From Enoplolaimus lenunculus (lineage: Eukaryota): 64,000 bases of DNA. Below are positions 21,496 through 61,608 of this stretch, in pieces. Every line of letters begins with the position of its first letter. Position 1 is the first letter of the stretch. The notes beneath the pieces are model-generated. The model was not told where the DNA came from. It saw nothing but the letters and a program-made list of their open reading frames with translations, and searched no databases. Made by a program: the position numbers and the translations under genes. The stretch lies in contig JASANG010002537.1 in NCBI GenBank assembly GCA_030248215.1, positions 186,001-250,000 on the forward strand. The letters run 5' to 3'.

Positions 21496-24400
21496 TTATT
21501 CAGATTCATCAAGCTCTTCATACGACACAGTACTTCTCCTATCACCGAAATCTTGAAATAACGCTACGGACATACTGCCAAGCGAACGCTGTTTAGTTTC
21601 TGGCAGGTTGAACGCAATCCAAACCGTAATTGGTACAACGATGCCGGCATACACAAGAAATACAAAACTACCAATCGATCTGTTAATTGGTGCGTATATT
21701 TGTACGCATACAACTGCAGCGATAAACATTAACAAATTGTTCGCTGCGTTCACTGTTGAACAAAGCGGATACGGAAAAATTTCAGCGGCAAGTAAAAATG
21801 ATATCGATTGCGGTCCAAACATAACGGCGTTAAGCAGTAGCATAATGTGAGCGATTTCTGCGTAATTTCTTTCCCATGAATCAGAAAGCTGAGGTAGAGT
21901 GCTGAGCACTGAAAACTTTTAAAAGAGTAGAATATGTGAACCTAAACGCGCTTGTAAAATATATGTTTCGATATAATTTCAATTAGATTTTGATTTCTCC
22001 ACGTTTGATCGAATTCAAAGACTACAATCAAATTCCATTAGCTTTCATTCAACTTCAAGTAAACTAACGTTTTGCGTTACAGAAACATATTCGCAACTTA
22101 TATTTTGCTTTTTTATTTCCCTGTTTTGTGGAAATGGGGGTTGACTTTTGTAAAGTAGATAGTACGGATTACGTGTAAATGCAGTATGGATGGAGTCATA
22201 GTGAACGAACAAACAAACCGTTCGTTAATAATGTTTTCGTTATTAATCCGATATCATACTTCAGGTTGCATACGAATCAGACCGAGAGGTACCGATTTTC
22301 CTGCAAGACAAGCTTCCTCTGGAGATAATCAAGTTACAGCCGTTATGTTCAAGACCAGTAGTCAAAGGCAATGAACGGGTACAGTCTCTCTACAAAACGT
22401 CCACTTGTGGTGTTCTGTGTGCAATACGGGCGCGTAGCCAAGAGGGGCAGAGTGGGCTCAGCCCCCCCCCCCCCCCGAAAACTTTTAGGCACCCCTTAGA
22501 AAGTTTTCAACTTTCCTTGTAACTCATTGAAAACCCTTGAACGCCCCTCCTGAAAATTTTTAGCCCCCCCTAGTAAGGCGAGCTGGCTACGGGCCTAGTG
22601 CGATAAACAAATAGTCTAAACAGAAATAAAATTGTTCAACTCACTAATTAAACTATACGCAGACACAACAAATCCTACGATAATCAATATACGACGACCA
22701 CAGCGTTCGATAGTAAATATTGAAAGAATACAACCAGGAACAACAATTACATTCGCGATCACAGATGCAAGATTAGCACTTTGTTCAGACAACGATAGCG
22801 TTTTCAACAGAAACAGCTTCGAGTATGACAAAACAACCAGTGTTCCAGCAAAATATGACCCAAAACCACTCAATAGACATACTGATAATAATACCAGACT
22901 CCGTCGTGTCTTAAACAACGGCCAAAGCGCACCCCAATCTTTAGTTTTATCATAATGTGAAGAAAAACTTTGTTCAGTGGTGAACTCGTCGAATATTGTA
23001 CGTGGATCTGTTCCTGAAACAACAGTAACACCCCGTGTAACCGAGTAAGACGTAAAAAACTACTGTTCACTAACAGTGCGCTGGTTACCTAACAGTGGCA
23101 CATTGCTCAAATGGCTGTTGAGTCGGTTAGAATGAAACGCCTTCAGTTAATTATTATAGAAATTTTTTAGTTGAACCAATAATCTCTGTACCCTCGCGAG
23201 CATAAAATATCGAAAATGCAAGTATATTTCTGAGTCGACAGTGGTATTCCGCTTTTATTAAAATGCCAGTTTTTATTTTTAATGCCATTTTAGCACTTTG
23301 GTTCACAAACTTCTTTTGTCCAGCTCAACAAACAAACTAAACGGGGTACGTTTTATAACGCAGAGTAATTTTCGACCATTTCGCGACACCATCAACCAAC
23401 ACTGCGCAAATGATGAGTCAAATTGACTCTCTCTCTCTGAAATTGGCTTTTCTGGACTACACAAACTCAGTCAAATTCAACTCCGCTAGGGCCAAACGTG
23501 CGACTCAGTAGTCGAATTTGACTCTGGTGGAGTCAAATTTGGCTCAGTTTGTAAAGTTCCGTAGAGCCTATTTCGGAAAGAGCCAATTTGACTCACCATT
23601 ATTTGCAGTGAGTGCAGCAAGAATTATCAATGAGTTTTCCAATCATTACATATTGTTTGTATTTCGTTTTAAAAAACTCCGAAATGAAAGAATCATCGAG
23701 ATTTTCCTAAATTGTTTTGAAATATACAACAAAAGACTCAGATTTCTAATTTCAACCAGAGAAACGCAATTTTTGCATCCAAACAGCATTAAATCAAAGC
23801 ATTTCACATTGAATTTTGCTTACGAACCGATTACAACAAAGAACAATAAAAACTTCTAAATTCGTTGACAAAAAATTTTAATACCTGGACCATGATAGAA
23901 CAAAATAGCGTTTTCGGCCTCGGCAACTCGTTTGTTCTTGACATACAGTATCTTTGGACTTTCGTGGATAAACGGCGTAGTCAAAATTAGCACTGCAGAG
24001 GGCAATGCGGTAAATCCCACTAAATACGGTAGTAAATCTAAGGTCCCGAAAATCTAAAACAAACAGCAGCCAAGACAGGAACCTAAATGAACAGGAATCA
24101 GTACACTAAAGGGTGACGCTATACTTGTCGTGTGGCGCTGTCCAGCGCGGACGGCACTATAAAAGTCAAAACGTTTTTATTTATAAATTGGTTTGTGCAG
24201 CCATTCGCTGCCTGATGGCGAATCTTATACGATACAGCAGTGTACCAGACGACACCTGAAAGCTTTAATTAAAATAATCAAGAATTGTAGTTTTAGCCAA
24301 AGCCAAATCCTTGACATAAGCTTATGACATATATCTCTCAACCGTAACTTTTTCACAAAATTGCTCAACCGCACACACAATTCTCGTCGCAAATCGATCT

Positions 24401-27400
24401 TATGTTTGTCCAAGAGCTTTAATTTTTTATAAATATCGCACGGTGCAGAAATTTATGTGCCGTTCGCAATATGAAATATTGCTTGGGCATAGAAAATGAC
24501 AAGTTAGTGTTAACGAGTGGCAAATTTGAAATTTGCCACTCATTAAACCTACCCTAACACTTCTTTCGTTAACGCTACCATAACGCGTGACACAGAGCAC
24601 TTAGTGACATGCGTTAGGGTTGCGTTGACGGAAAATTTACCCTTCATATATTTTATTTTATGACTGTAATTTTTTTAAAATAAATATCACATAACGCAGA
24701 AACATATTACTTTGACACGAATAAGTAAACGTAACCTTTGGGTACGGATGGCAACGTTTCTGTTCTTACTTGAGGCAAACTTAGAACAGAACCAAGCAGT
24801 TGAAACACAGTCAACGCAATTCCAATATTATTGACTACAAATCCGCGTACATCTGTAGGACTGCAATCGACCCCAAAAATTGGAACCAATACTGTGGATA
24901 TTCCGGACGCAAAGCCAACCAATAAACGACCAACAATTAGTAATTCGAAACAATTTGTGTATCTAAACCATTAAGTACGGCGTTTTTAAATGTAACATGT
25001 TACAAGTGTCTGTAACGTAAGCAAAACAGCACACAACATTGCATGTGTATGACTTAGGTTTAGGCTTTGTCTTAGGATATAGTTACGATTTTGCTTACAC
25101 ATAGAAGAGGTCCCAGAAACCAGAACACCCAATGATCTCACAAAGTTAAATTAAAAGTTTTACGATTGGCTGAACCTTAAGCAAACTTGTGAATTTTGTA
25201 CGGGTCCTATTCTATACATTGGTCCGGTTTCAAATTCAATTTATCAAAAGAATATTTACAAATATAATAAGTTCTAAACGAATCTATTTTTTATAGAATT
25301 GATACCCTGAAACAGTTCGTAACAGTGATTATGAGAGGGTAAAACGAAGTACCTTGAATAAGGTAACGGCTATAGGTACAGTTGTGATTCGGTTAATTAC
25401 TTGTTGGATCTCTATTTAGGTTACAGAATACTATTTTATTAAGCGAAAATTTCACTCAGCGATGGAGGCAATCTTGAATAGGAACTTATTCTTTTACCCC
25501 TACATCAAACCAGAGCCGTAATTGTTGTAACAAAATATTTTTGCTAATATATGCACCGTTGGAAATGTCTATAACGGTAAAACCAAATTGATCATATAGA
25601 GAAGATAATTTGAAAAAATTCTAAGGAACATAAGCATTCACGGCCCCGTAAAATTATGGTCCTATTACAGCAGTTTTTATGTTTTACCATAGCCAGCTTA
25701 TTGGATTTCACATATACACCTGAGCTACACGCGGTGGTAAAAGTTTGGCCCCCTAGAAAATTTTTAACCTTGCTTGTAAGTCGTTGAAAACCATTGTATT
25801 CTTTTCATACCAAATATTAGCCCCCTAGAAAAGTGAGCTGGCTACGGGCCTTATGGTTGAACGCCTTACATCATAGTACTCATTGCAAGACTTGCAACAA
25901 AACTAATACCACCAACTGCGAATCCAAGTGAATTTCGTAAGCCGAAAGCTCTTGTAAACCATGGCGCACAAATACAGCCCGGAATACCACCAAAATTCAA
26001 TGCATTGATACAAAATGCCCAAAGAGATTGCAAATTTGAGTCAGATATTGAACCATAGTGGGCTTTAAATGAAGAGTTGATGAAGAAAAGAAATTGGTTT
26101 TCTAAAATAACTGTTCACATCATTATAGCAACTCAGCCGCTGAAATCTTACTATATCTGTAGCGCCAAATATCTAGGCTCATCATACGGACACCGGGTGA
26201 CTAGGACATTGGGAGATTCGCAGGGTGCGACCGGAATATCCGGTTCCAGTTCAATATTCGGTAAAAACTGATATACGTATCCGGTTTCGGTATCCGGTAC
26301 AAACCTACCGGAAACAGGGTATTTACCGTTGTTGCGGAATATCACAAAACAGCTTTTTACAAGTGAGCTTCTTTTAACATCTTTTGCTGCAATTACATTT
26401 CTGGGCAAGTCAACAAGTTCTAGTTTTGATATTAACTTTCTACTTTTAATATATTTATGCAAGCGAGCGTTGAACGTATTTTTGCATTAAAAAAATTTCA
26501 GTTTATCAACAGCAATTATGAGCTTTATAAAGACGAAAACCTTGAGGACGCTAAAAATACAGCGAAAAACAAATTATTTTAACATATACAATATCAAGTA
26601 TCCGGTTCCTGGTCCGGTAAAAAATTGGTTAGCGGTTAAGCACGCGATAGCAGTTTAATAAAATTCAGATAGTAAGTCACTTTAAATGAGTGCATTCTAT
26701 TTTGCATATAGTTTGTGCTTTGACCTAGATATTCCTGGGCGCAATTATCGCATACCGTGATACAACTAATACCAAGAGTGTATGATATTTCATAGAGTGC
26801 GGCACTTGTTTATGTGTAATTGTTTCAAGTATCACGCGGTCCCAATATTGCAATACCGCTCCCTGATCATTCACGGGGTATTATTATGCTATGAACATTT
26901 AACTATTGCAATGCGTGCTTCTCATACACACGCCATGAGACTGCTAATTAGTTTAACACTAAAAATGCCTTTGAACCTCCCTCAATTGAAGTCGGGGCAC
27001 GAAAGAAAAAGGTCCATTAGATGCTACATAAGATTAACTGCTAAGAAATGCTGGTGTTGCACTTTTAATAAACTCTTGGTATTATTAATAGTTTACTTGG
27101 GAAGAGTGTGACGATTGCATTTTTTAACAGTTAATTCGTCGTAGTATCACGCGTACCTTTTTCCGTTATATGCACCCACGTGTGTGGGGTCAAAGGTGCA
27201 TTTTAGTTTTAAATCAACTAACAATTTCAATGCGTGAGACGGAATACACGCATTTCAACGGTTGTGTCGCACTGTATAAAAAATCATACACGCTTAGTGT
27301 TACTTGTAACTTTAAATTAGTGATGCCTGATTTTTTGAGTTCATGAATTACTATGATCTACACCAACCTCAATCAACAACTCTACAACTCGCTTAATCCA

Positions 27401-31713: not shown

Positions 31714-34700
31714 TTAAAACCACGGGCTCCATTCTTCCGATGTTCTTGCGTACGATAACGGGTCTGTCGCAATTGCTGCAAAAGAAACACCAATACATTC
31801 GTGGTAATACATTTATTACTATAAACACCCAATGCAGCGATGTGTGTACGTAAGCTTAGCAATACCGATGCTACCAAAATTCCCGCACATTATTTTGATC
31901 CTAAGTGCTATTTCCCTGGCTTCTCCACAGCTTGAAAATTTCCGCCGGGGGGCGTTTCCTGGGGGGCAGCTGATTTTGCTGCGGGCAGTTTTCCTGGGGC
32001 CCCCAGATGATCTGGGGGGTCCTGGGGGGCAGGCTTAAAATTTTACAAACCGACTTTTTGGACCATTTTTTTCATTCTAGACCGTGTTTCCAACTCAACG
32101 TTAGATTACTCATCGCTCAACATGACAAAAATTTCTCGCAAACGCTAATAACAATAATTTTAACTAATATTACGTATATACTGACAACTAAACCAGAAGT
32201 TGAAAGAAGCACAATTATATACCAGTCGTAGTGGGACTACATTTATTGAGCGAAGCTCGATCGCACGTAAGCAATTAAGGTAATATGCAAATTAGTTGTT
32301 AGCTAACTATTCATTTATTGGTTTTGGAGATTTAAATTTTTGACACAAATGCTCGTAATTGCCTCCTCATAAATTAAGGTCTTCGTTTCGATTCATACCT
32401 AGCAAACAATCAACTTGTTGTTCTGGCGACAAGCCACTAACTGGATATCCTCTTGGCAAGCATTTGTCATTAGCTGTTAAAATATCATCGTATTTACCGC
32501 ACAAAACGGTTTCGATGTTCGAACAAAGTCTTCGCGAGGATGCTGTTGCACAATATTTTAATTCGTCCCTAAAAATAAACAAATCTCGAAAACAAATTCA
32601 AAGCTCAAAAAGAGCACAATTTGAGAGCTTACGGTTTATGCAAATGATCTCTACCATCACTTACACTTACTCTTGGCTTCTGGGCAGTAGCATTTTAGTC
32701 TAGTATGCGGTTAGTACAGTGCTGTAGCTGAAGGTAATTCTCTTACCGGGTTTATGCTTTTACAGATACATTTGAACCTGACCTTAACAACTTTTGATCA
32801 TGTTCGCCTCCAAACAGCAATAAACAAGCTTCAATCCTAAATTTTTACGAAATTAAACCACATAAAAATTTATGCTGATTTACTTTAAGATCTTGACAGG
32901 ATTTTCGCCGTCCAGTTTTCGAGACACGATTGCATTTCGATATTTACAATTCCAGACGTCCACGGCCGTTTTCATGAATGCATTACTGTCTCCGTTGGCA
33001 TGCAGTTGACGCCGAATACACTGCTGAAATAAGATGCTAATCCCGAATACAAAACAAAACAAAACAAAACAATTTTAGCAGTTCAAATACGTCTACACAA
33101 GATTTTATTGCGACACGAAAACCCGTAATAGTTTTACCTAATATGGTTGATCCTCTTAACGGCTACTAAAATAACTTTTTTCCGAGTCCTATAACAAAAC
33201 ATTCAAAATCAATTAACACAAACTGCAGCTGAGCGCTGACCCAGGTACCTACAGTCACAGACAGAATTTAGTGCCCAGCAGGGTTCCAACAGTGACTAAA
33301 TTTTGCCAGAAGAAGAACAAGAAAAGGAATTGGATGTCTTTGCAGGACTCGGAACAGGGATTTGAAATATAATTTTCATCCCCGAGTTACTGTTGGAACT
33401 TTCAGAAAACGTTGCCAAAAATGACTTAAACGAATTTTGAACTATTTCACCATCAAGTTTTGTGAAAATACATCAGAAACAGCACTGATAAAAATTAACT
33501 AATTGCAAAAACACTCATTTTGATATGACAATTTTTGAAAGACGTTTCGAATATTTAAATGATTATGGATAATTTGACACGAAACTGTACAAATTTCAGT
33601 TTCTGCGTCTTTGAACGGAGAAACTGGAACAGGAATTGAATTTTTGCAGGAATTCTGGAGGAACAGGAATTTCGGTCGAACACTATTGGCCGGGAATTGT
33701 AGTTGCACCTGCGGTAGCATTTTATAATGGTTCAATCTTCTTTGCTCGCGACCAGGCTTTTACGGTTTCTTAAAAGTTTAATACTAGCAATTGTGTCGCG
33801 GTTATGATTGCAGTAACCGAAGTTAGGAACACGACAGCGATTGCATTTAGTTATTCTCTCCGAAACTGTACATGTGCAATGACCTTCGTATCACAGACTT
33901 AAAAACGCATTACAACTATGGCTTCAGCAACATAATTAATTAAAACACAAATTTTAAACAAATAAACCTGAAAACACCAGCTGTAAAACCTACCACCCAG
34001 TCAACAGAGGACTGTTTGGTCAGAAGCTCAATTGTGTTTAGTATCAAGCGTTTTTCGGAACGAAATACCCTCATTGCATGTTGCATTACACGACGATATT
34101 TTCCATCTACGCCCAACGGAAGTAATACGTTGACCATTTGTCGGGTCATTCGAAAGGGCACAAGCTCGTATAAGTGAAGAAACTGAAAATGATATTGCGT
34201 AACCTTACAAAGTTACACTTCACCAAAATTGGAACACAAATTTTGCCAAATTTTCAGGCGGAATCGAAATTCTGATGAAACCCTAGTGCGCAATGTGCGT
34301 TTACACACCATACACGAGCATCAGATGTGAAGCGTAATTTTACTAAAAATCGACAACAGCAACAAATGCTCCGGTAAATTTCCACCGGAATTGATTATTT
34401 TGGAACTAAATTTTGTTCAGTGGAAATTAAGCATTTCACTAAAAAATTACGATAAAAATAAAATTAGTACTGTATATCAACCTTCACAATCACTTAAAAT
34501 AATCCATTTAAGGTAGGTTTCGCTACCGTGGATAATGATACTCTAAAATACAGCAGATTAAATAAGCACTTATCTGCCACTAAGGTTATTCCACAAATAT
34601 TATAGCAAAGAAGTAGAATGTATTTCTAACTTTCCGGTTCTTGTAATTTTTTTAAATTCCGGTTCCGGTGAATTGTAATTCCGGTTGCACCCAGCCCACA

Positions 34701-37700
34701 AGATATATTCCGTTTAGTAGAAGAGCCCAATCTTTCGGGACACAACAAATGTCCAATTTATCTTGTTACTCCTTCAATAACAATCTCAATCTATTGAGTT
34801 CACTAACCTGTAGGTTAATTCCAAACGCGCATCCAAAACCAAGTCCTGTCACTGCTCCCGTTTTTTCAGACAATAAAAAGTGTCCCAAGTGCCGATCACC
34901 AATACCAAGCAAATAATGCGCTGCACACATAACGGCAAGTGAGCCACTGTAGATATTGCTGATTACATACAAAGCGTCTGTTTGATTTGTAAACTTAGCA
35001 AATAGTCTTTTCCTGAAGATGGAAGAAACACTGAAAATGTCTTAACATGATGATATTAAAAAGGTCGTGAATACCCATACCACTACACTTTTAAACATAT
35101 TGCCTCACCAAGTCAGCCAGTAAAGACAACAAAAATAGTTCTTCCTACTCCAGAAATCAATACTACAACCAACCACAATTTAAGAAAATATTTAGTACTA
35201 AATCCGGCTTCTTCGACAAAAACGAAACTCCTGCTTCAATCGTTTGCTTACTGCAGTGGAGTCAGCAATAAAGGAACATACCTGAGCATGTCAAATGGTA
35301 TGGCATCTTGCGCTGCTCTTATTCGTTTTAACGCACACTGATTAGATTCATTTGCAAACAGGCGATTGAAACTCCCAGAAGGCAACTCTGTTTTTGCCCG
35401 GTGCGAAAATACTCTGCGTGCCACACTACTAGAATGAATAAAGCAATATTTATTATACTAAAAGCATTGAAAAACAGTCTCGAGATGAATTCCAATAGTT
35501 ACTTGTGAATGCATTACTAGAACGATTTGTTAAAAACAATCCATTATTATGATACTATTACACACAAAAATCCAAAAAACCATAGCTAACATAGTATAAT
35601 AACAGTTGCAACACATACTAAACTAAAACCGAAAATCGTTGGTGGTAGCAATTTTTTCCGAATAGGCTTGTCTTTAATATGAGAGGCTATCACTTAATTT
35701 TCCTGCTAAAATTCAGCTGTCTACCAAACATATCGGAAGAGAGTCGCACAGGCCACTCCCCTTATGACCACCCCTATCATTAATCAAGCAAAAAGATTTC
35801 GTTTCAGCTTACACAGCTGCTTCTTGCTCTTCTGTTGTCAAAGCCATATTGCTCTGGAAATCAGCAGCATAAGGCAAAACTTCGATAAGACCAAGCCTAA
35901 AATATACCTATGAATGGAGGCAAAAACTAAAATCCGAAAAATGTAAGTGGGCAACAAATCTTCTTCTGTATATATATTACTGTTGTGCAATAGGTTAACA
36001 ACGCTACGTCTTAAATGACATAAACCAAAAGATAGCGAGTTATTGCGTTGAATGGAGGCCACCGACAAGGGCATAGCGAGTGGGAGTTTAAGAGGCAAAC
36101 CTTCTCCTTTTCTAATTTTTGTCCACATCGATTTGGAAATTTTACAGTCGGTGGCACAAGTAACCCCATTACTAAATCCCGGCTACGCCCCCAGGTCATC
36201 AATTTGATGACCGTTTGTAGTTGATGATGTAGCTTACTTCGGCAATATTGGTATCGTATCAGACATTTAAGCGCCAAATTACGATTACTCACCTGGTGGT
36301 AAGAGGAATGATGGCGTATGTTTCAATTCTTAAATCGCGTGTTTGAATTGTTGTGTTTGCTTGAAGTGCATGATTCATCAGATGTAGTAGCTGCATAATC
36401 CTTTGATCCGGCCGTAAATCCTTACCGCTTTTCACCAAAAATTTGTAGTCTTTGCCATCACTACCAATAAATGTTAGCCTCAATGGCATAAAATTGGAAA
36501 CAACAGTTTCTACCTAGAACAACAGCATAAATTAAGGTAACACTTGCACATTAAGTACACACATTTTGAAAAACTTGTAACTTTGTTTGGGTTTGCCTGT
36601 CATCACAAGAAATGTAAGGGTGGCGCTATACCTGTCGTCCGGTGGCATGCGGCGATCGCACATGCATTGAACACAAATCACCTGTCATTATCTGGAGTAG
36701 GAACACTATTTAAAACGTAAAAAGCAAAACAGAACGCCAGATACGCTGTAAACATTGTATTATAACCTACCTTCGTGGCAAAAGATCTAATGCGTATATG
36801 ATGCTGCGGTAATGGTTTGCGTCTGCCAGTATACTGTCCTGGTAGTTCAGGTAGCTCAGGTGGTCGTTCACGCATACCAGAACAAAACTCGGCTAGCCAC
36901 GGCGAAAACTGAGCAAGATTTAGCGGAGTTTCTTCATCAGAATCGAAGGATGATTGCACTACGTTAACGAGATCACGTGTATTTTCTACTAGTGCCTTAC
37001 GCTGAAATTAAACAGCTAGCTGGTACACTGAATCAAAATTTTACCTGGAGGAGGACAACCTTAACCGACAAGCTCTATGTCCTTCAGAACAAGAAATCAT
37101 TATTCATTATATATATACTCATGGGCATAAAAATACGGTATTTTACGGTTTTTAGAGCAGATAAGGTTCTCGAAATTTACTCCAAAACAACATACCTGGA
37201 TTAAAATAATATGTAAAAATTACAATCATAACGTACATTTGTCAATGTAAAGAGCGAACCATTTTTGCCAAACGCTTGATCAACAGATGCGCGAAATTTC
37301 TGTAATTTGCCAAAATAACATAATTTACTGAAATAGACGAGTTTCACTTCATACCAATCGTTTACCATGATCATCTACTATATTCATAACAAGTAGCGTT
37401 TGTTCTCATCTATATTCACATTTCTTTTCAACAAAGCGTTACAATATTTCAACTCATTTTCAGAACAAATAAAATAAAACACCATAAATTAAAATGCAGT
37501 ATCGGATCGCAAACGTACATTTACAAACCATTCAATTGAGGCTAATAAAAATACAAGGGTATTTTAATCATTGCGGATTTTTCAACTTTCAACATTACCT
37601 TGGAAAACATTAGTCTATATTCACCGGGTCTTGGAATATTGTGATTGGACTGAACTCCGCCTGCAAAACTTAAAGAATGTTAAACGACGAACGAAGCGGT

Positions 37701-40700
37701 TCAAAAGCAAAATCAATATCAAGTATGTTGTTATTTATCAATGGTACCACAAAATTTCATTTAGCTATAATTTTTAATGGTACCACAAAATTTAGTTTAT
37801 CATGGACGACTGTCACGAAGACATTTTCAAAATCAGTTTCCATACACCCTACTATTTCTACATCTTCTACGTCGCTTATTGTTTAGCCATAATTAAATTT
37901 CATGCGAAGGAATTTTACTGTGAAGGGCTTGGTGTCCGTTTTCGTTGTTGGGTGGGTACTGCAAGACGCATGTCATTTTAATCGCATGAACACAATACAT
38001 GAGTTAAGTGAATATTACTTTTTGGAAATAGATCCGACATCATTTCTTCGTACAATTCCATTAACTGATGGTGCGAAGCGTTAGAATCAATAAAGTGTTG
38101 TATGTCTTCGCAATAATTCTACAATATATGATCAAAAATAAACTAAATCTCAAGCGGTATTTCCATCTGGTTTTATAATTTTATGCTGCTGCGTTGTATT
38201 GACTATCGCTACAACCGGCAAAATGCCAAAACAGCAACACTTAGTTTAAAGTAAAAAGCATCCTCCATGTTCAAAAAGCAAGATAAAAACCAAAATTAAA
38301 TTTATTTAGTGCCTCAAATATTCGGTATACAGTTGTTTAGCCATTAAAATTACTGACTGCCAGTCAAGTTCATACGGTCACGGCAAATGATACCAACCTT
38401 AAATCGAGATGCTGGATGATTTAGGTAACCAAGCGCTTGTACGAGATCAGAAATGAGAGGCAAATCATCAATTTTCTTGTCCATCCTGAATAATACTTAA
38501 AACGTTTTGCAGATTCAAAACTTCCAACAGAAACAGATACAAAAACGTTTACCCAGTGCGTAATATTGTAAGACTAGAAAAGAAATACTACTTGATGCTA
38601 CAATTTAGCAAAGCAACATGGAACCCCTTGAAACATATATCAGAGCAGAGTGAGACAGTATATTACATTGCCGAATACTGGATAGTGCATTTTTACTGGA
38701 ATAAAACAGTAACCAGATATATCTTCTGAGTTCGTAGAGGGAGTAGTACAAAAGTATATGTTCATTAAATACGAATTTTATAATTGTTCGGTTGAATTTT
38801 TCATTTTTAGTTCCGTGTATCAAAACCATAACTTCAAGACTTGCCCACAAAGCTAATCGCAGAAAGATGTTAAAGATGCTTACCCGAAAAAAGCTGTTTA
38901 ATGACATTTGGAACCACGTATATTGGCTTTTTGCCGTATATTAAATGGAATCCGGACATAATCGCACCCTGAGACAGAGCACTCAATTTTTGTATTAACT
39001 ACATTACTTACGATTTTATGCTATTACAAATTTTTTACGCGAGGGACTAGGGAAAACTTTGCGCATACCCACAAAAATGCTTACCAGTTTATCAAACATT
39101 GTGCATCATAGTTTAAATTGTTGCCAAAGTCATTACGATTTAGCTTATATGGATATACCATAGCCTGAAAAACAATATCACATGAACAGGATAAAATTTT
39201 CCGAAGGAAGGAACGCTTAACAAACAAAATATATTATTAACGAAGACAATGAAAACGAAATCTGTCTATGCGCTTAAAGACTGAAAAAAATTTAAGTGCA
39301 AACTAGAAATTAATCGGAAAAATACTGAAGTCAAACTAATCTATAATCGGCGAACTACACTTCGCTGCCCCACGTAAAACACAACTTCGTCTAAATTTAA
39401 AAAAGATTTACCGCAGGATATTTTTCTGTAATTCTTCGCAGCAATTTGTGCAGTGCCAACCCTTCAGGTTTATTAATTAGTGATATCATTTGATCAATCC
39501 AATCAAAAAACAACCACTCTGGTATAGGTTCCACCTAAATATATGTCACAGCATTTTATAACACACGTTAGGGTAGGGTTCACGCAATTTTTGCGATATG
39601 GTAGCGTTAACGTATGACAATTTTGAAATTTGACAAGTAGTGTTAACCCTACGAAATTTTTCATTGTGAACGATGCATTACTGCAACCAATTAAAACATA
39701 TAAAAAAGGAAACACAACAAATTAAAATAACGATATAAAAAAATTTGAACATACTATTCAATGGTGTGTAAATACCATAGTATAGTCCACTGAAACATTC
39801 AATCCCATAATTTGCAGTCAACACTTATATGAACTTACATATAGCCGATATTAACTTATTAAAATCGCTCTCAAGCAAAAACTGAGTTCTGTTTATCTCC
39901 AGTTTACATTAGTAAATGCTACATAGCAACAATGATAAATGAACAGATTATAAAATAGAAAGACCGCTTACATTTTCTTCAAATATTTGTCTAGTCGCAG
40001 ATGGATATAGTTCAAGAACGTTCAATATGTTCGGAATGCGGTTTAGCGTAGCAGCGGTTGCAGAATACTTAATGCACAATAGTAAGCACTTGATAAGAGT
40101 ACATGCATATCTGGGACCATCAATTGCTGCAGATAGTTTCGCATCTGCAATTTAAATAGCACTCAACTCAGCAAAAGCAACTATTTAGCGAAATAGTTCC
40201 CTAAAATCAAGAGCATAGGCAGCGGGGACCCTTCAAAAATCCATGCTAACGAAACATTAATGTTATGAATCGAACCTCAGTCTGCATGTTTATAATAGTA
40301 TTCTAATTTGCATCCAAATGGGATAAAGCATAACTTAATCTAAAAGCTTCGCCAAAATGTTAATCTAACATCCTTATCAAAGTCTCGCCTACCAGTCCTA
40401 CTAAAAATACTCACCTCTGAGCATTTTATCGCAATATTCAGCCAATTCAAACCGTCCAAACGAATAACAAGTATTGTCATCAACTTTGTCCTCGAAGACT
40501 GCACTGGAATAGAGCTCGAAACATCTGTGAATCAAACAATTGGTCACCTGCAGAAAAGAAAATGATTACAGAACCATTCAAATTTCAACCAGTATTCTGA
40601 AAAAATATAGAATCAAAGTAAAAACATTATTTTAAAATCAAATCCCTCTTTCAGCCAGCTGCATGTTGGATCCAATAAAATGTTCTATCGAACACAACAC

Positions 40701-43700
40701 TGTTACCAAATTTTTTTCAAAATAAATTAACACAAGTTTCAGGACAGAATCGTTCAATAAAATGAACAAAGCTGTTGCATTGTCTCCATGACAAGTTTGT
40801 GAGTCAATATTACACAAATATGGCATACCTCTGCTAAATTTGTACTATTATGTTGCAGACCAGCTAACTGTAAAATTTTCGTTTGATCCGCCTGTGATAT
40901 CGCATGCCAAACGTCTACTAAATCTTGTTCCGGTTGCGTAATTAAAAAATCAATACACTGTGCAAGCAGGACATCCGAATACCTACAGTGTCCTGATCTG
41001 TTAGCAGTGCCTGAAATATCAAATACTGTTATAAAACACAATAACCTTGCGTGAACCGAGCAACGAGAGTGCATAAGAGTGCAACCGGACATCCGGCACC
41101 GGCGAAAATCAGTGTCGAATTTCAACATTTTAAACAAATTGAAGCAAGTAGTTACTAAACGACTGAGATTTAATGTTTATTTTATATTCAAATACGCACT
41201 TCCGGCGGTATAATGTATCTTTAATCGCTCGCAGTCAATAATGCATTTTACGAAATGTTTCTTCTTCGCGGCGATTCGGCTGCTATTTTAAATAAACTGA
41301 AAAACTCTGTTTACGTTTTTTAATTTTCAAGTACTCTCAGCTAATTTCCATCTTGTATGTTGTTACATTAATGACTATTAAACTTGCTTCTGACACTTTC
41401 CACAGTTGTCATCACATTGCCAAATGCTTTAATTGAAGGTGAGCATTTAGCTTCTGTGAGAGCTATATGTATGTTTGCACGGTGCCAGTCGCGATCCAAG
41501 TCACGTATTAATACCAAACCGTCACTAGTTTCATTTTCGCGATTCCGTTTCATATCTATCAAAATCTGAAACAAAAACAGACTTAATTTGAACCAGGAGG
41601 ACGAAAAAGCTGACGTTTCTGTGATGGTTAACATAGGCGGTGTTTGCGTCAAGCCCCATACACGCATGAAAGTTTTTGCATGGAGAACTAGCCTCTGCAA
41701 TCTGCACGAGTTGCTTGCACATGCAAGTATTTGCAAAGAACGTGAAAAGTCCAGTTCCTGCTTCTGCAATACTTGAAAAGTAATCAATTTTTAGCAAGAA
41801 TTCAGATGGAACATTGCTAATAAATTCCTGGCCTATATTCATGTTGAATAATTTGCAGCTGCAAGTTCTCCAAACTAATTTTCGGACGAAACTTGCAGCT
41901 GAAAGTTTCACCTGCAAGAAATATTCACGCGTTAAGGTTTGACTCGTATTAATTTATTGATTTAAAACGGTTTCAAATCTTAAAATTTCTATTTAGTGCT
42001 TAATAGATGTAAAACTAGTCTAGTCGCCGTCTCCGCGGACCGTGAAATCAAACAAATTTGACATTACAAATAGTTCAAGATCCTCACAAAAATTCAAAAA
42101 GTTTGAATTAATAATCAAAATTCAGATGCAAGAAATTCAAGCTACTGGAAAGTGCGTTCACATGTGCAAAAAACATAAAATTTTTCTTGGATCGCAGCTT
42201 TGGCCCGTAAGTACTTGCGCATTTCGCCTACCAACAGAGACAGCGAACGATCGTGTAGCCCCGCTACCTGGTTATATAGCGATATGAGAAACAGAATTAC
42301 CCTTTCGGTTACCCAAAACTGTATCTTTTTGAAAGGAAACACAAAACACTTTTATTTTATTGTGACAAAGTACAAATAGTTGCATTTTTGCGTTTAAAAC
42401 ATTTATGGCATCGCGTAAAAATATGGGTCATCCGCATTTATAACGTCTACGCTATGTTAAAAAATTCTCCAGTCTATTTCGTTTGCCCGGGATCAAAAAC
42501 AGCACAGCTTTGAGTTAGGGTTGTAGAGACGGTGTTTGAAACAGAGGAATTTGTCCCGGGCCTTTTCGAAGGGTATGGGCACAGTAGCCAAGTGAAAAAT
42601 AAAGTAAAAAAAATAAAGCTTGACGGCGATTTATTAGTTTAACTGTATAAAACGGCAATTCACAGCAGATAGAAATATTCAAAACAACTTTTGTTCAGAT
42701 AATCTATTTTTATTTTCGGGAACAACGGTTAAAAATGGACCGAAACCCAGACGAAATTCTCGGTCTCGGTCTCGCTTTTTTGACCGAGACCAGTCATCCC
42801 TGGCCATAACAGATCTGGTTTGTCCAAAAATAAATGAAAACAATATTCTCCAAAATACCATGATCGTAAGCACAGATACAATATATACCGATCTCCTAAT
42901 AGGATCTACTGCTAGCAGTATAAAATCTATATACGGCTGTCATAAACATACCTAACCATAAGAAATAACACTTAAACTTTTGTGAGCTTAATTTAAAATA
43001 AATTTACATAACAATTTACAGAATTTAAAAATTCTACCTGTTGCGATTTTTTCAAGCAAAAGAACGCCGTTGCAAAATTGCGCTGAGCTGATGCCGCGTG
43101 CGCTTCATTGATTCGCATTTTAGCAACAGCGCCTAAAAGATCAGTTGCTGGCTTTCGAGCTCGAAATCTATCTCGTTCCGATGATTTCAATAACAGTTTG
43201 GCAAGCACTGATCTGAAAACGCAATAATTATACCAGATACGGCATTTTAAGTTTTCGAAGCAATTATTTCAGTCGGTACCATAGCATTATACTATATGTT
43301 GTGTAAAAATTAAACTCTGCCCAAAAGTGCGATAGAGCAGCAGCAGCAGAAAAAAATATTTATTTATATATATCACAGTATTCTATGACACAGCATGTGA
43401 TGTTATTCATGTTTCTATGATAATTGCCATACACAAAGGTCACACATAAATTGCGAATACAGGTTAGAAACAATGCAAATTTTCGATTCCAATAACACCT
43501 TCTGAACTTACTCACAACTAATATTGTAAACGTTGTAAAGAAATTCAACATTCAGGGTAAATGAGAGTCAATCGTAGAAATTTTCACATTATAAGCCTAT
43601 CTAGAGCGACTATGACATGAACTGTTGCAAGTTATATCACACATACCATCTTTATCAGGTCTAGTAGTATTACGTAATAAAAGAGTTACCTGTTATGTGT

Positions 43701-46700
43701 TACGTTAGACCAAGTAATGGTATCGTCATATGTTGCGCTAGGCTGGTGACTCAGCCAGGAGGTAGCAAACTGACTAAGTGTTTGTTCATTAACACCTGAA
43801 ATAATACTCCGAATTTTGTGAAAATGTGTCAATGAAATTGGTATAGCAAAAGGCGGTTACACGGCACATTTACGGCGTTGCCAAATATATTTTAGCACCG
43901 TTGAGTTAAATCCGAAAAGAGTCCATATATTCTAAGAACAATTCAGACTAAATTTCCTTAAAGTTAAATTTATGCCTAAAACATATTTTTTTATAAAAAA
44001 TTCCAATTACACAATCATTCCTTTATTAGTACTGGACTCCGTTCTGCGACTAACCAGATTTAAAAGCGCTCAGAGCAAGCTTTGTTTCAATCAACGGCTG
44101 GATGACCTCAATACATCGTCTGGGATTAACAGCAGCATCGTCTGATGTCCATTTGGCCTACAATTTCAAGCACACGTGATAGAAAAGGTAGAATTATAAC
44201 TAAAAGTTTTCACATATAGCACAACATAGATTGACCTTTGAAAATGCCAGCAGATAACCATATCCACACTTCATATATCACTGAAAAGACTTACGCTCAA
44301 AAAACCTTTCATTCCTTCACTACAATATTTTATTGCCGTGTCATATTGAGTCTCCGAAATATGCCAATGAGCGAGATCATTTGAAATCACAGTCTAAACA
44401 GTAAAATTATATTTAAAGAAATACGATTTTAGCAACATACAGGCGGAAACAAATTACAAAATTTTTCTTCTAATGCTATTTGATTATTCTTAGAAATTTA
44501 ATAACGCTACGACGTAAAAAAACTATGACCTTTTATAAATGTCATTTAACAAAGGTAAATGTAGTCTACTTTTAACTTGGAGTTCAAAAACTAAAGTAAA
44601 CGTTAAGCTTACCTCTATTTCCGAGTGTTTTTCAGCGCTCAAATTGCTTTGTTCTACAGCCTCGGCTAACAGTTTATTGCAATGCGCGATGTCTTGGCGT
44701 TCTTCGATTTGACGAACCGCTGATTTGATCAACAAAGGGTAAAAATCCTTCTAAAATAATAAAAGAACCAATAACGTTTATTACTATATTCTTTTAAAGC
44801 AGGACGGAATCCTGCATTATAAATGCTTAAAAATGTGCCTGCCGTGATATAAGCAAGTCTATAACGTTTAAAATGATGCAATAAGAAGCATTTACGCAGT
44901 TATCAATAAGAATAATGTTACTAGAAATTTAGGTACCATTTGTGCTTAGGTATTTCCAGTCATGCACAATGTAGTTGAATATGAACAAAAGAGTACCAGT
45001 GTATTGGGTTCTATGATAGACGTGGCAGACACAACTGAACCGAAAGAATAACTAAACGGCTAATATCTGCAAACTTAATAATTAACACATAAATCCAAAA
45101 ATTGTACGTATGGTAATTTACTTCCAACCAGGATCCAGAAAACCAATCCTTAGGGTTGCGTTATTAGTATCCCCATGCGCGTCACCGGACGCCACAAAAA
45201 ATCAAGTTCTGAAACCGAAGCTCGGTGCCAGCGCAAACCTAATTCATGTTTCACAGAACTGTAAGCTGCAGTATATTCTGAAATCATATTTGCGATAATT
45301 ATCCGACTAACCATAATATCATTACTGTTGCGTACGCTGCGTTCTTTTAAGGTTCCGTTTAGAACATTCCAACACATATCTGACACCTCACGCCACCTTT
45401 GAAGTTGTGCAAGGCACTAGAACGTTAGTATTACATAAAATACAATATATCAGCTCAAGAACTATCAGAAGTATGTCGAGGTCAATTACTTTATAGTGTT
45501 TACCATTGTGAATGCTCAAAATCACCTCCCGTTAATTTTAAGATATGACACATTAAACTTATATTAACTATGATGTATGTGTATTTTTATAATAATATGT
45601 GTTATAAAAATGTCCAAAATCGCGACAGCCAACGGTTAGAGCTCTTATTTTTTCACAATCCAAACAAATAACTCACGTTTAAACGCCCTCGCGTAGCCAG
45701 ATCATGTTCTATCCCAGATAAACAAGAGTTCCTTTTATCGCCCGCAAGTGTATCGCATGCCTGTACACAAATCAGCAAACTATTAGTAAACTACCACATC
45801 CATGAGTCGTCATCACATAATCATTCATGGCATTTCGTCATTACTGCAGTTTTTATTTAGACAATAAACTTTTGTAATGAGAGCCGTTTTAGCTCATATA
45901 AAAGTTACTCCCCTCAAGAAAGGGAGTGTTAAGGGAATTTTATTGACAGTAACATCTGAAACAATCACCTTTTCATATTGAGCCACAGCTTCTTTGGCAT
46001 TTCCGGCTGCTTCAGCGCATATTCCGAGCAAAGTTGAACTTTGAACTTGTAGCTGTGTTTGAAAAATGCTTCGTACTTGATCCAGGCGATTGAGCGAACG
46101 ATAAACCCTTAAACGATCAATAAATTACATGATGCAACATCTGACGTTTTAGAAAGCAACCAGCCGGCACCGCTTTGATCACACCACTTTCAATGATTTA
46201 TTCATAGGCTAGGAGAACATACACTTGAATCCAAGGTGCCACCGAATACCAAAAATGGGGTAGCCGGATAATCCAATATGTGGTCGGAGCCGGGAAAGAA
46301 ATTCCAATCTAATACTAAGCGGCATTCAAATATCAGAACGTTGCTGACGATTCTTCAGTCGTTGGCCTAAGGTATCCAAAGTGTTTCCGTGACAAAGCTT
46401 AACACTTTACGCCGATGCATTGGCCCATGTGACTTTTAAGAGCATTAAGTCTTCCCTAGGTACTATATAGAGCAGTCTTAGGTTTTAAGGTATTAGTCAC
46501 ATACCTATTTTACGCTGCCATATAAACGCAGAGATACTGTTACGCGCCTAAAAATAACACTGGTCGTCTTTCTTGGTTTTCCAGCGTGATTGTAGCCCAA
46601 TAAAGATGGCGAACGTGCACGGGTACATTCAACCGTTTACATGACAGAAAAAACTTCAAAAAGTAGGTAAATCAGTTCCATGACAGTTGGCATAATTGCC

Positions 46701-49145
46701 ATTTCATGAATACACAAACACATAGTTTATTAATCGTTTCTGCGCCCATTTGCATCAAACCTTGGGTCAATATAAATTGTATCGAATGTATTTTGCAGGG
46801 TTCCATCGAAATTCCAGCAAAAATTGATCCATGTTCCTGTTCCGGCACTACGGAACGAAGGTGTCGGAATTTTTACGGCCATGATGAGTTCTTTTGTAGG
46901 AGTGATGAAAACGAAAAATAGACCGGGAAAAAATCGTTCAAGGCACGTTTTTCAAGAGTTTACTAAAACGTATATAAAACTGTAATGCGGTGCTGAAATT
47001 TATTTCAAATTTCGATTCCTGTTCCGGCAAAAAGTTCAATTCATGTTCATGTTATGACAATATTTAGATCTTGTTGAAATCCTGGCATTTTGTAAAATAT
47101 AGACACACAACTTACTTTGCAAGTTTGGCCCATTTATCACTTGCAGCTTCGTTACTGTAAGTCTGCCGGCGCGTAGGCAAACAATGAACCTGAAGACTTC
47201 GGTTATATAAACACTGTACGATTTCGTGTTCCAACTGCACCACAGCTGAAATACAAAATCGGTAACATGCTAATTAAACAGACGTGGTTTAAACCGACTA
47301 CCCTCGTAAGGTGACAAAGGACGTAAAACGTGTCGTTCCTGTCGTAATATGCCAATTCTAGCTTACTAGTTTCTCGATACAAAAGCGTATTAGTCTCCAG
47401 GCAATAATTAAAAATAACATTGTACAAACGAAAACAGGGGAACATAATAGCACAGCACGGGTTAACGGTGCACCCTTTCCTTAATTACGTAGTCCAGTTT
47501 AACAAATCATTTAATGTAATTTTGTAAATAGAAAAATTTCCAGTCTTACTATCAGCAGAATGTCCTGTTTCCAAAACGTTAGTCACTTCAACTAGAATAA
47601 CCTGTGTGGGAAATGTCCATATCAGAGGAAGCTCATATTTTGACATTGTATAAACATTGCGCGCAACTAAAGCACGACGGCAAGCAGAAAACAATTCCTG
47701 ATAGAAACACATTACCAAGCTACCGTTAATTACTTACTTGACATATTTGATTGCTGCAACTCAGAGCAGGTCAAAATATAATTCGTATTATAGCATGTAT
47801 CGTTTGCATATTGATAACTGATCAGCTAAAACACGGTTTTAAACAATAAACATTTTAAATAACCAAAACATACAAAATAAACAATTGTTTTTACGGTAGG
47901 AACGATGTTCTACAAATCATAATAACCGAGCTTGTGGCAACAGCAGAAATGAAATACAAAAAGTTTTTGAAAGCTACAACCTAACTCAGGTGAAACCAAT
48001 CTGTTTTAACAGAAATGTTGCGGAACAAAAACCAACCTTGCTATCGATTCATAATATACCTGGCTTAAACAAAATAATATTTATAGCTTTAGCCAATGAA
48101 CATTTCAAAATACCGATAGATAACTGGACTGTGTAATAAAATAAAGGGTGCACCGTCAACCCGTGCAATGCTATTATATGCTCTTTCTCTTTTCGTTTCT
48201 ACAATTTTATTTTTCAAAATACCGATAGTTTTCACGTACATTATCTGCATATTGCGCTGAGTAACCGCAAGTTAGCATTGTATCTTCAAGCATAGATCGC
48301 ATGAGTTGCACTAAATCCAAGCAAAGGTGAAGCCGTTTGACTTCACCGCTTCTACTGCAGCCGCTTGTATCGTACACATGATTTCTGAGACTTGTAAAAA
48401 ACGAACTCAAGACAACAGCCATATCAATTGAACTTTTCTGAAATAGTTACAAACGAAAAGAAATGGTGTGTTTTATCGTTAACTTAGATTTTTCAATTTA
48501 CAAATTTCAAATCAGTAAGACGCCGTTCACATAAAAATTTTGTTCAATGGTGCAACAGATTCTCATGTAGCACTATTTTTAGCCATCTTTTTCATATCAC
48601 AGAATTCTACTTCAAATATGGTTATATCCAGGTCTTTACAATCTGATACAGACCACAAAATTTTAGAATGTCAACCCGTTAAAACCTTAGAATGTCAAAC
48701 CTTTAATATATACGCGTGTGTATTGTGTGCGTAGCAATTTGTACCCTGTAAAAATGGTTTCTGTGTTATACTGCATGTGGAGAGTTTTGAAAAAATTTTG
48801 TGAACTGTGATAACCCTTGCATTATCATGTACCGCAAGATCAGGGATAGAAGAATTTTCTCTTAAAGCAAAAGAACCTAAACATTTTCTAATTTAACTAC
48901 AAACCACAAACCAATTGTTACGCCTTAGCTTGCACAATGCGACTATTCAGTTACTTATCATACTTGCTCAATGTCAAAAATTTCACCACTAGTGAACGAC
49001 AAATTACCTGATCGAGTAAATAACTAAAATTTTCCACGCCTTTGTACTTGAGGCAAATTTCGAGAAACCGTTGCGTTACAGGAGACTTGCAGCCACGAGG
49101 TTGATAACTTGATAAACTTGTCAATAAACAAGCTCTTGGCTTTCG
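31714..49145 (-). CDS. DNA-PKcs-derived portion: end of M-HEAT, FAT, PIKK kinase fold (pseudokinase), FATC
   Basis: Peptides [191 protein letters not shown] are collinear with remembered PRKDC (GQYDGRGKPLPEYH, GLSEETQVKCL, ATDPNILGRTWEGWEPWM*). Confidence 0.92.
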
Positions 49146-60959: not shown

Positions 60960-61608
60960 TGATATTTTTTGAGTTTTCAAATATGAAATACATAAGATTT
61001 ATTTGGGTGATTACCTCTTAAATAAAAGAGTACTTAAAACAGATACGTATATATACAAAATTTGAATAACTGAAAAATTTAGGGTTCCAACAGGAACTAA
61101 ATTTTGCTAGAACAAGGCCAGAAACAGGAATTGCACTTCTTTGCAGGAATAGAAACAGCAACCGTAATTTGAAATAAAATTCATCAGCGAATTACTGTTG
61201 GACCTTTTAGAAATCTCGGCAAAAAATGGTTTAAGTGAGTTTTTAGTTATTATTTCATGTTCATCTCAATGCGGCGGATCAGAAAATTTCAATGTAGATA
61301 ATTGAACGTAGTGCCATACCCTGCATTATTTATTAAGCACACATTTTACAGTAAGTCTGTATATAATAATTTTTGCAGAATAATTTTTAGAATATTTTTA
61401 GAACATTTTTACACGCGCAACGCCGATTCGCAGTACTTCGAGGAATTGTGTGGTCGCGACCGTCGGAGAAGTTTGTATTCGTGGTCCAGGACGACCGCCT
61501 AAAGAAGGGGGAATGTGAGTACACGCGCTGCAGCTAGTGTATGTGCAGAGTGTGCAATGTTAAGACACATACTCGTGCACGTATACCACCAGAGAAAATT
61601 ATGATATC

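What the first reader, a model, noticed from the sequence alone, without database searches (positions are those of the whole stretch)
34808..36513. The DNA-PKcs-derived kinase domain is a pseudokinase kept in an intact frame
Seen: the catalytic loop reads GDRHLGH (34880-34897), so the Mg-binding Asn of DRHxxN is His. DFG reads GFG (34832-34840). The hinge LGLIEW reads LGLIEV. The P-loop SxxxPKR reads SNFMPLR, and EDLRQD reads KDLRPD. The beta3 Lys (FLVK) and catalytic Asp remain. Known: these positions (human N3927, D3941, W3805) are needed for ATP/Mg binding, and TRRAP is the recognised PIKK pseudokinase. Inference: several separate hits clustered on the ATP site, with no stop or frameshift over ~31 exons and an intact FATC, point to selection for a catalytically dead scaffold rather than pseudogene decay. 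That would be an independent PIKK pseudokinase derived from DNA-PKcs.
Basis: partly seen in the sequence, partly recalled or inferred. Interest (0 to 1): 0.85.

Follow-up and report, generated by a model that had tools for sequence, protein, structure and literature searches.

The report
Head-only DNA-PKcs lacking magnesium ligands
This animal genome carries an intact, spliced gene for only the head of the DNA-repair kinase DNA-PKcs, with all three magnesium-binding residues replaced, beside a second DNA-PKcs gene; it is likely a catalytically dead scaffold that arose independently of TRRAP, the family's one recognised pseudokinase.

Summary
All three Mg2+ ligands of the human structure are replaced (E3756K, N3927H, D3941G), while the beta3 Lys, catalytic Asp and most of the adenine pocket stay. 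All 54 homologues checked keep E, N and D. Contigs of two runs match these codons exactly. The hinge, P-loop and Q-to-P changes are not diagnostic.

The 30-exon, 1,328-codon model has no stop. A contig from a second sample skips four predicted introns exactly. Neutral decay long enough to give these changes left an intact gene in 0 of 2,000 simulations.

New context: the gene encodes only FAT-kinase-FATC. A second DNA-PKcs gene starts 21 kb downstream and runs off the window. Best reading (0.5): a head-only duplicate kept as a pseudokinase scaffold that may bind ATP without metal, like STRAD-alpha. Rivals: a split gene whose only kinase half lacks the metal ligands (0.22), CASK-like residual activity, a recent pseudogene, or fusion to upstream PPM1D. 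No orthologue, fold or activity test was possible.

The parts
31714..48437 (-). Head-only DNA-PKcs-like gene (FAT + FRB-like + kinase + FATC), 30 modelled exons, 1,328 codons, no stop. The 5' end is unresolved; homology is significant from exon 2 (47825) on.
   Evidence: Spliced profile alignment: 753 bits, profile 2717-3927. Exons 2-3: 0 of 300 shuffles reach the score. Exon 1: 122 of 300 do. The exon 12 donor (41397) is weak.
48240..48437 (-). Candidate exon 1: a good acceptor, an in-frame ATG at 48422, in phase with exon 2; homology not significant
43690..45416 (-). FAT exons 6-10, whose four introns are skipped exactly in one 503-nt contig of run X3
   Evidence: joints 43793/44053, 44156/44294, 44393/44613 and 44750/45312, ends CT..AC; none in X1
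36293..36513 (-). Kinase N-lobe exon: ATP loop (S and P kept), beta3 Lys kept, E3756 to Lys (36423-36421), Q3760 to Pro, T3790/Y3791/P3795 kept
35813..35896 (-). Hinge exon: LGLIEVL; E3804 and L3806 kept, W3805 to Val (a variable position)
34808..35012 (-). Catalytic-loop exon: D3922/R/H kept, N3927 to His (34882-34880), I3940 to Leu, D3941 to Gly (34840-34838)
33994..34182 (-). Activation-loop end exon: invariant P3956 to Tyr, E3957 and R3962 kept, F4005/E4008/P4009 changed
31714..32568 (-). Last two exons with the FATC motif ending WSPWF-stop (W4124 and W4127 kept)
1..10151 (-). Second DNA-PKcs gene: start codon at 10151, N-HEAT and first M-HEAT part, 13 exons, 1,504 codons without a stop, running off the window
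   Evidence: Pfam PF20500 E=1e-57 and PF20502 E=5e-70; models
51858..60962 (-). Upstream PPM1D/Wip1-like phosphatase gene with a long Q-rich exon and basic tail exons (52775-52643, 52072-51887)
21496..26114 (-). Sugar-transporter (MFS) gene between the two DNA-PKcs genes
   Evidence: PF00083 E=4e-11 on one exon; other exons read from the ORF list

Best explanation
The gene is an intact, spliced DNA-PKcs gene reduced to the FAT-kinase-FATC head with all three Mg2+ ligands replaced; it likely arose as a partial duplicate of the neighbouring DNA-PKcs gene and is likely kept as a pseudokinase scaffold. Shown: head-only homology, open frame, four real splice junctions, and loss of E3756/N3927/D3941 with retention of K3753, D3922, S3731, P3735, L3751, Y3791, E3804 and L3806. 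Inferred: the protein folds as a PIKK head, cannot position Mg-ATP for normal phosphotransfer, and may still bind ATP without metal, with Lys and His standing in for the cations as His/Arg do in STRAD-alpha. Inferred: without the HEAT ring and YRPD motif it would not be loaded onto DNA ends by Ku, which would spare the cell the end-blocking toxicity of full-length kinase-dead DNA-PKcs seen in mice. Speculative: it would act through the FAT/FATC surfaces as a partner, decoy or allosteric regulator of the parent kinase or of other PIKK-binding proteins.
For: Mg2+ is held by N3927, D3941 and E3756 (PMC8791830, passage). Each is 54 of 54 in homologues covering the kinase domain and is replaced here. 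29 of 36 columns at 90% or more identity are kept. Under neutral substitution at a divergence giving even 3/36 changed residues, a mean of 6.8 stops and 4.7 splice-dinucleotide hits is expected, and 0 of 2,000 runs stayed intact. Distance to six arthropod/mollusc DNA-PKcs relative to their mutual distance is 1.36 (FAT), 1.05 (FAT end/FRB), 1.44 (kinase) and 1.47 (FATC), against 1.21-1.25 for the neighbouring gene. The FAT keeps 42 of 50 conserved columns and the neighbour 52 of 68. A spliced contig exists in X3. A second DNA-PKcs gene with its own start codon is in the window. Pseudokinases usually arise by duplication (PMC13519141, passage). Kinase-dead full-length DNA-PKcs is lethal in mice and rescued by Ku loss (PMC6990542, passages).
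Against: The kinase end of the neighbouring gene is outside the window and no genome is held, so an active parent is assumed, not seen. The head gene is only slightly more diverged than the neighbour, which fits a split gene equally well. No orthologue with the same changes turned up among the best 150 of 398 hits, so there is no dN/dS. In X3, kinase-region contigs run through introns unspliced, and the run's kind is only guessed as 'DNA?'. The 5' end and start codon are unresolved. There are no binding, activity or fold data.
Confidence: 0.5

Rival explanations
1. Gene fission: the gene at 10151 encodes only the HEAT ring and this gene the head, so the animal's only DNA-PKcs would be a two-chain protein without a normal kinase.
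For: The two genes are complementary within the window, and the head gene's homology begins close to the M-HEAT/FAT border (FAT = 2801-3579, PMC8549938; exon 4 maps weakly to human 2929-2973, E=1.1). Rates are similar in both genes.
Against: No YRPD motif or DNA-end-binding basic patch was found 5' of the head gene above control scores; it would have to lie in the other gene. Duplication followed by loss of catalysis is the commoner route. Every homologue checked keeps the metal ligands.
Confidence: 0.22
2. Not dead but metal-independent: a CASK-like atypical kinase with low, Mg-inhibited activity. This is compatible with either gene history.
For: CASK keeps the beta3 Lys and HRD and has GFG (PMC2639636, Table 1 passage). 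It is reported active without cations (PMC4718504). The same Lys, Asp and GFG pattern is here.
Against: CASK's activity is disputed as possible contamination (PMC13519141). The GFG kinase VRK3 is inactive, though it also lacks the catalytic Asp. The invariant P3956 and the F4005/E4008/P4009 positions are also changed.
Confidence: 0.15
3. A recently disabled or decaying duplicate with no present function, in which the first stop has not yet arrived.
For: The kinase and FATC are the fastest parts (1.44-1.47). The kinase keeps 57 of 76 conserved columns, near the low end of 17 homologues (0.66-0.99). Many X3 contigs are unspliced. The one listed exonic difference between samples (32966) is non-synonymous (A1225T).
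Against: 0 of 2,000 neutral simulations stay intact. There is no copy at 80% or more DNA identity over the kinase exons in X1/X2, so the gene is not a young duplicate. All 29 introns keep GT-AG. Spliced junctions are seen.
Confidence: 0.08
4. The head exons are the 3' part of a PPM1D (Wip1) phosphatase-pseudokinase fusion transcript.
For: PPM1D lies directly upstream on the same strand. Its long exon has a strong phase-0 donor at 53041 that would join exon 1 (48437) in frame, and the exon ending at 51887 also has a strong donor. No 5' exon of the head gene is established.
Against: The tail exons show no DNA-PKcs homology (216 of 300 shuffles reach the score) and are K/R-rich like PPM1D tails. 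Read-through gives a stop at 51858 and poly(A) signals at 51820 and 51623. Exon 1 has its own in-frame ATG. None of the 120 PPM1D relatives listed carries a PI3K domain (the search was limited to 2,000 aa, shorter than such a fusion).
Confidence: 0.07

Closest known systems
DNA-PKcs (PRKDC; human structures 5w1r, 7otp and others)
   Same: FAT-kinase-FATC order. Best PDB match for two of three kinase exons (E=2e-10 and 7e-12); the third scores slightly better to mTOR (3e-12 against 6e-11). Inside the DNA-PKcs clade in a quick tree. Of the 19 FAT/kinase/FATC residues listed as invariant in 85 species (PMC8021618), N3927, D3941 and F4005 are changed; the others I mapped are kept.
   Different: No N-HEAT/M-HEAT ring or YRPD motif found in this gene. 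All three Mg2+ ligands are replaced. About 1,330 aa instead of about 4,100.
TRRAP/Tra1
   Same: PIKK-family pseudokinase with FAT and FATC kept; the only one recognised in the reviews read.
   Different: No TRRAP/Tra1 chain among the 43, 56 and 29 PDB hits. This protein keeps the beta3 Lys and catalytic Asp and has no HEAT region. TRRAP's own motif losses are recalled, not checked here.
STRAD-alpha, CASK, MLKL (cation-independent nucleotide-binding pseudokinases)
   Same: Loss of the metal ligands with the nucleotide pocket kept. STRAD-alpha has His at the catalytic-loop Asn position standing in for the cation. CASK has GFG.
   Different: These are typical-fold eukaryotic kinases, not PIKKs. 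This is an analogy of mechanism only; binding is untested here.

Membership tests
DNA-PKcs | FAT-kinase-FATC closer to DNA-PKcs than to other PIKKs | tested here: met
   Tree (quick method, SH-aLRT 99; outgroup only three TOR and one ATR-like row; no ATM, SMG1 or TRRAP rows).
DNA-PKcs | N-HEAT/M-HEAT ring and YRPD motif in the same polypeptide | tested here: not met
   Nothing above control upstream of exon 2; PPM1D occupies the upstream space.
DNA-PKcs | Invariant catalytic set K3753, E3756, D3922, N3927, D3941 | tested here: not met
   K and D3922 kept; E, N and D3941 replaced.
DNA-PKcs | Ku/DNA-activated SQ/TQ kinase activity | not testable with these tools
   needs protein
Pseudokinase (sequence definition) | Lacks at least one of beta3 Lys, catalytic Asp, DFG Asp | tested here: met
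   DFG Asp is Gly; definition in PMC4718504.
Pseudokinase (sequence definition) | Protein-coding gene under selection rather than pseudogene | tested here: inconclusive
   Intact frame, simulation, rates and spliced contig favour it; no orthologue for dN/dS and no protein evidence.
Pseudokinase (functional) | No phosphotransfer | not testable with these tools
   needs assay
TRRAP/Tra1 | Sequence closest to TRRAP/Tra1 | tested here: not met
   No TRRAP/Tra1 in the PDB hit lists.
TRRAP/Tra1 | Subunit of SAGA/NuA4-TIP60 | not testable with these tools
   none
Cation-independent ATP-binding pseudokinases (STRAD-alpha/CASK type) | Metal ligands lost, partly to basic residues, with beta3 Lys and adenine pocket kept | tested here: met
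   (sequence level only)
Cation-independent ATP-binding pseudokinases (STRAD-alpha/CASK type) | Binds ATP without Mg2+ | not testable with these tools
   needs thermal-shift or fluorescent-ATP assay

The most novel reading that the evidence does not exclude
This animal has split DNA-PKcs at the ring/head border into two neighbouring genes and dropped the metal-dependent kinase, so it repairs DNA ends with a two-chain, kinase-less (or Mg-independent) DNA-PKcs: a natural separation of the scaffold role from catalysis that is lethal when forced on the one-chain mouse protein.
Probability: 0.22. Interest if true: 0.88.

Novelty: new variant of a known kind. Interest (0 to 1): 0.62.

Why it matters
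The reviews read recognise one PIKK pseudokinase, TRRAP. N3927 and D3941 were invariant in DNA-PKcs of 85 species (PMC8021618). A head-only DNA-PKcs with the metal site removed but the fold and ATP pocket kept would be an independent origin of a PIKK pseudokinase, caught early enough that its parent is obvious. It would also be a natural reagent for an open question raised by mouse genetics (kinase-dead is worse than null): what DNA-PKcs does without catalysis, and whether a PIKK can bind ATP or transfer phosphate without Mg2+. The weight is limited by a single species, no orthologue and an unseen parent kinase.

Tried and rejected
Sequencing error: rejected; X1 and X2 contigs show 0 other letters across the kinase exons.

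A hidden alternative exon with intact motifs: the profile search of all 3,417 stop-to-stop frames found each kinase segment once.

Rescue by RNA editing: A-to-G could restore E3756 only, not N3927 or D3941.

Hinge, P-loop and Q-to-P changes as signs of death: rejected as variable positions.

Orthologue hunts: word search with the catalytic exon gave none. The HMMER search of 1.84 billion representatives gave 398 hits, 150 listed, identity 34-63%. Among the 152 proteins then held, 151 have the catalytic D, 151 the N and 150 the DFG Asp; the odd one is a repetitive protein, and two did not align at DFG. The metagenome scan gave 7 loci; the three translated read as TOR- or ATM-like. The ESM Atlas gave only generic PI3K clusters. 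These blanks are weak evidence.

No whole genome is held. No RNA holder is listed. Gaps in X3 cover (for example 46840-49427 and exon 27) are not used as evidence.

Polymorphism test: 11 non-repeat differences between samples were picked from the tables (9 intronic, 1 upstream of the gene, 1 exonic), too few to use; one search's table was cut.

The PPM1D tail exons as DNA-PKcs remnants: not significant; one homologue of 14 gave 4 of 300.

Taxon: not resolved. PPM1D scores 302-340 bits to protostomes, 285 to Styela and 271 to Asterias. The kinase sits weakly next to Trichinella/Trichuris on long branches.

Earlier-findings look-ups by place, by sequence and by the first word set returned nothing.

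Full report
OBSERVATION. Against human DNA-PKcs (PDB 5w1r, 3887-3948) the catalytic loop keeps D3922-R-H but has His for N3927, and DFG reads GFG. The N-lobe exon keeps S3731, P3735 and K3753 but has Lys for E3756. Contigs of runs X1 and X2 cover the kinase exons with 0 other letters; they are one sample, and X1 may be the window's source. A second sample (X3) carries the same E-to-K, Q-to-P and W-to-V; its cover of the His and Gly codons is marginal or unlisted.

WHICH CHANGES MATTER. [quoted passage not shown] I aligned 54 homologues covering at least 85% of the kinase domain; shorter hits were dropped. E, N and D are 54 of 54, so all three metal ligands are uniquely lost here. Of 36 columns at 90% or more identity, 7 are changed: the three ligands, P3956Y, I3940L, an F-to-Y and an R-to-S. 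The homologues lose 0-4, but they defined the columns; in a leave-one-out count the window keeps 0.75 against 0.66-0.99. Clustering on the metal site gives p=0.005, post hoc. N3927 and D3941 were invariant in 85 species (PMC8021618, passages and section 1.1; its supplementary alignments were not read).

THE GENE. A spliced alignment to a profile of 14 full-length homologues, refined by hand in the weak FAT stretches, gives 30 exons from 48437 to 31714, all GT-AG, 1,328 codons, no stop, 753 bits, ending in a FATC. Homology is significant from exon 2 (0 of 300 shuffles) but not for exon 1, and no YRPD motif or basic patch scores above controls. With FAT at 2801-3579 (PMC8549938, passages), the gene encodes just the head. 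One 503-nt contig of X3 skips four modelled introns exactly. Whether it is mRNA or a near-identical processed copy, this gene or a nearly identical one was transcribed and spliced. X3 contigs over the kinase exons are unspliced, so splicing there is inferred from the model only.

Upstream lies a PPM1D-like phosphatase, leaving no room for a HEAT ring. Downstream come a sugar transporter and then a second DNA-PKcs gene, which starts at 10151 and runs 1,504 codons without a stop to the window edge. Its kinase end cannot be seen; no genome is held. No second kinase copy at 80% or more DNA identity shows in X1/X2, so any duplication is old.

SELECTION OR DECAY. Neutral substitution sufficient to change even 3 of 36 residues gives on average 6.8 stops and 4.7 splice-site hits; 0 of 2,000 runs stayed intact (indels ignored). 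This excludes long neutral decay but not a very recent loss of function. Relative distances to six arthropod/mollusc homologues are 1.05-1.36 in the FAT region and 1.44-1.47 in kinase and FATC, against 1.21-1.25 for the neighbouring gene: modest relaxation, fold kept. No orthologue was found, so dN/dS could not be computed.

MECHANISM. Shown: a head-only, spliced, open-frame DNA-PKcs gene without metal ligands. Inferred: a folded PIKK head that cannot carry out normal Mg-dependent phosphotransfer. It may bind ATP without metal, because the pocket and beta3 Lys remain and two ligands became Lys and His; His at this position replaces the cation in STRAD-alpha (PMC4718504, passages). Full-length kinase-dead DNA-PKcs blocks end ligation and kills mouse embryos unless Ku is removed (PMC6990542, passages), so loss of the ring and loss of catalysis fit together. 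I commit at 0.5 to a partial duplicate acting as a non-catalytic scaffold or regulator beside an active parent; its partners are unknown. Rivals: split gene (0.22); CASK-like residual activity (0.15; GFG in PMC2639636; activity disputed in PMC13519141); recent pseudogene (0.08); PPM1D fusion (0.07; an in-frame splice is possible, but unsupported).

COMPARISON AND NOVELTY. It derives from DNA-PKcs (quick tree with a thin outgroup) but fails two of that family's defining features, so it is not a normal DNA-PKcs. It meets the sequence definition of a pseudokinase and is not TRRAP. The reviews read name TRRAP as the PIKK pseudokinase (PMC7619004, passages). Six literature searches (listings only, plus passages of PMC8377203) showed no DNA-PKcs-derived pseudokinase or head-only paralogue; the library lacks most subscription journals. 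Earlier notes of this scan describe an unrelated dead PIKK-like protein in Naegleria (e1-684825, e1-675998; not tested here), which suggests that such origins may not be unique. Verdict: real, a new variant of a known kind, interest 0.62; 0.88 if the split-gene reading holds.

Noticed in passing
window 1-3903 (-): The downstream DNA-PKcs gene has two very long coding stretches (2,082 nt and at least 1,400 nt) after 11 short exons, whereas the head gene keeps short exons throughout. This looks like regional intron loss. Two possible short in-frame introns (2393-2325, 641-570) lie inside them.
   Followed up: partly
window 53041-55206 (-): The PPM1D-like gene has a 2.2-kb exon with a long Q/H-rich low-complexity tail and two alternative phase-0 donors (53041, 52948), followed by two basic tail exons.
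   Followed up: partly
window 41368-41953 (-): Two overlapping 140-aa open frames; the stretch from 41911 has a good acceptor but is not in the model. It may be an extra or alternative exon, and the exon 12 donor nearby is weak.
   Followed up: no
window 31968-32435, 33372-33839, 34542-34775, 50075-51500: Very high-copy short interspersed repeats (summed contig depth up to 5e5 against about 50 for unique DNA), probably MITE- or SINE-like, inside introns and between the genes.
   Followed up: no
window 35462-35496: 35-base intronic deletion in sample S2 relative to the window.
   Followed up: no
window 34808-34816 and 34168-34182 (-): The activation loop differs from human at the T3950 autophosphorylation position and at P3954/P3956, which suggests loss of activation-loop regulation as well.
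   Followed up: partly
run X3: Listed as 'DNA?' but it holds a four-intron-skipping contig and uneven cover. It may be an RNA run, or a DNA run with a near-identical processed copy.
   Followed up: partly
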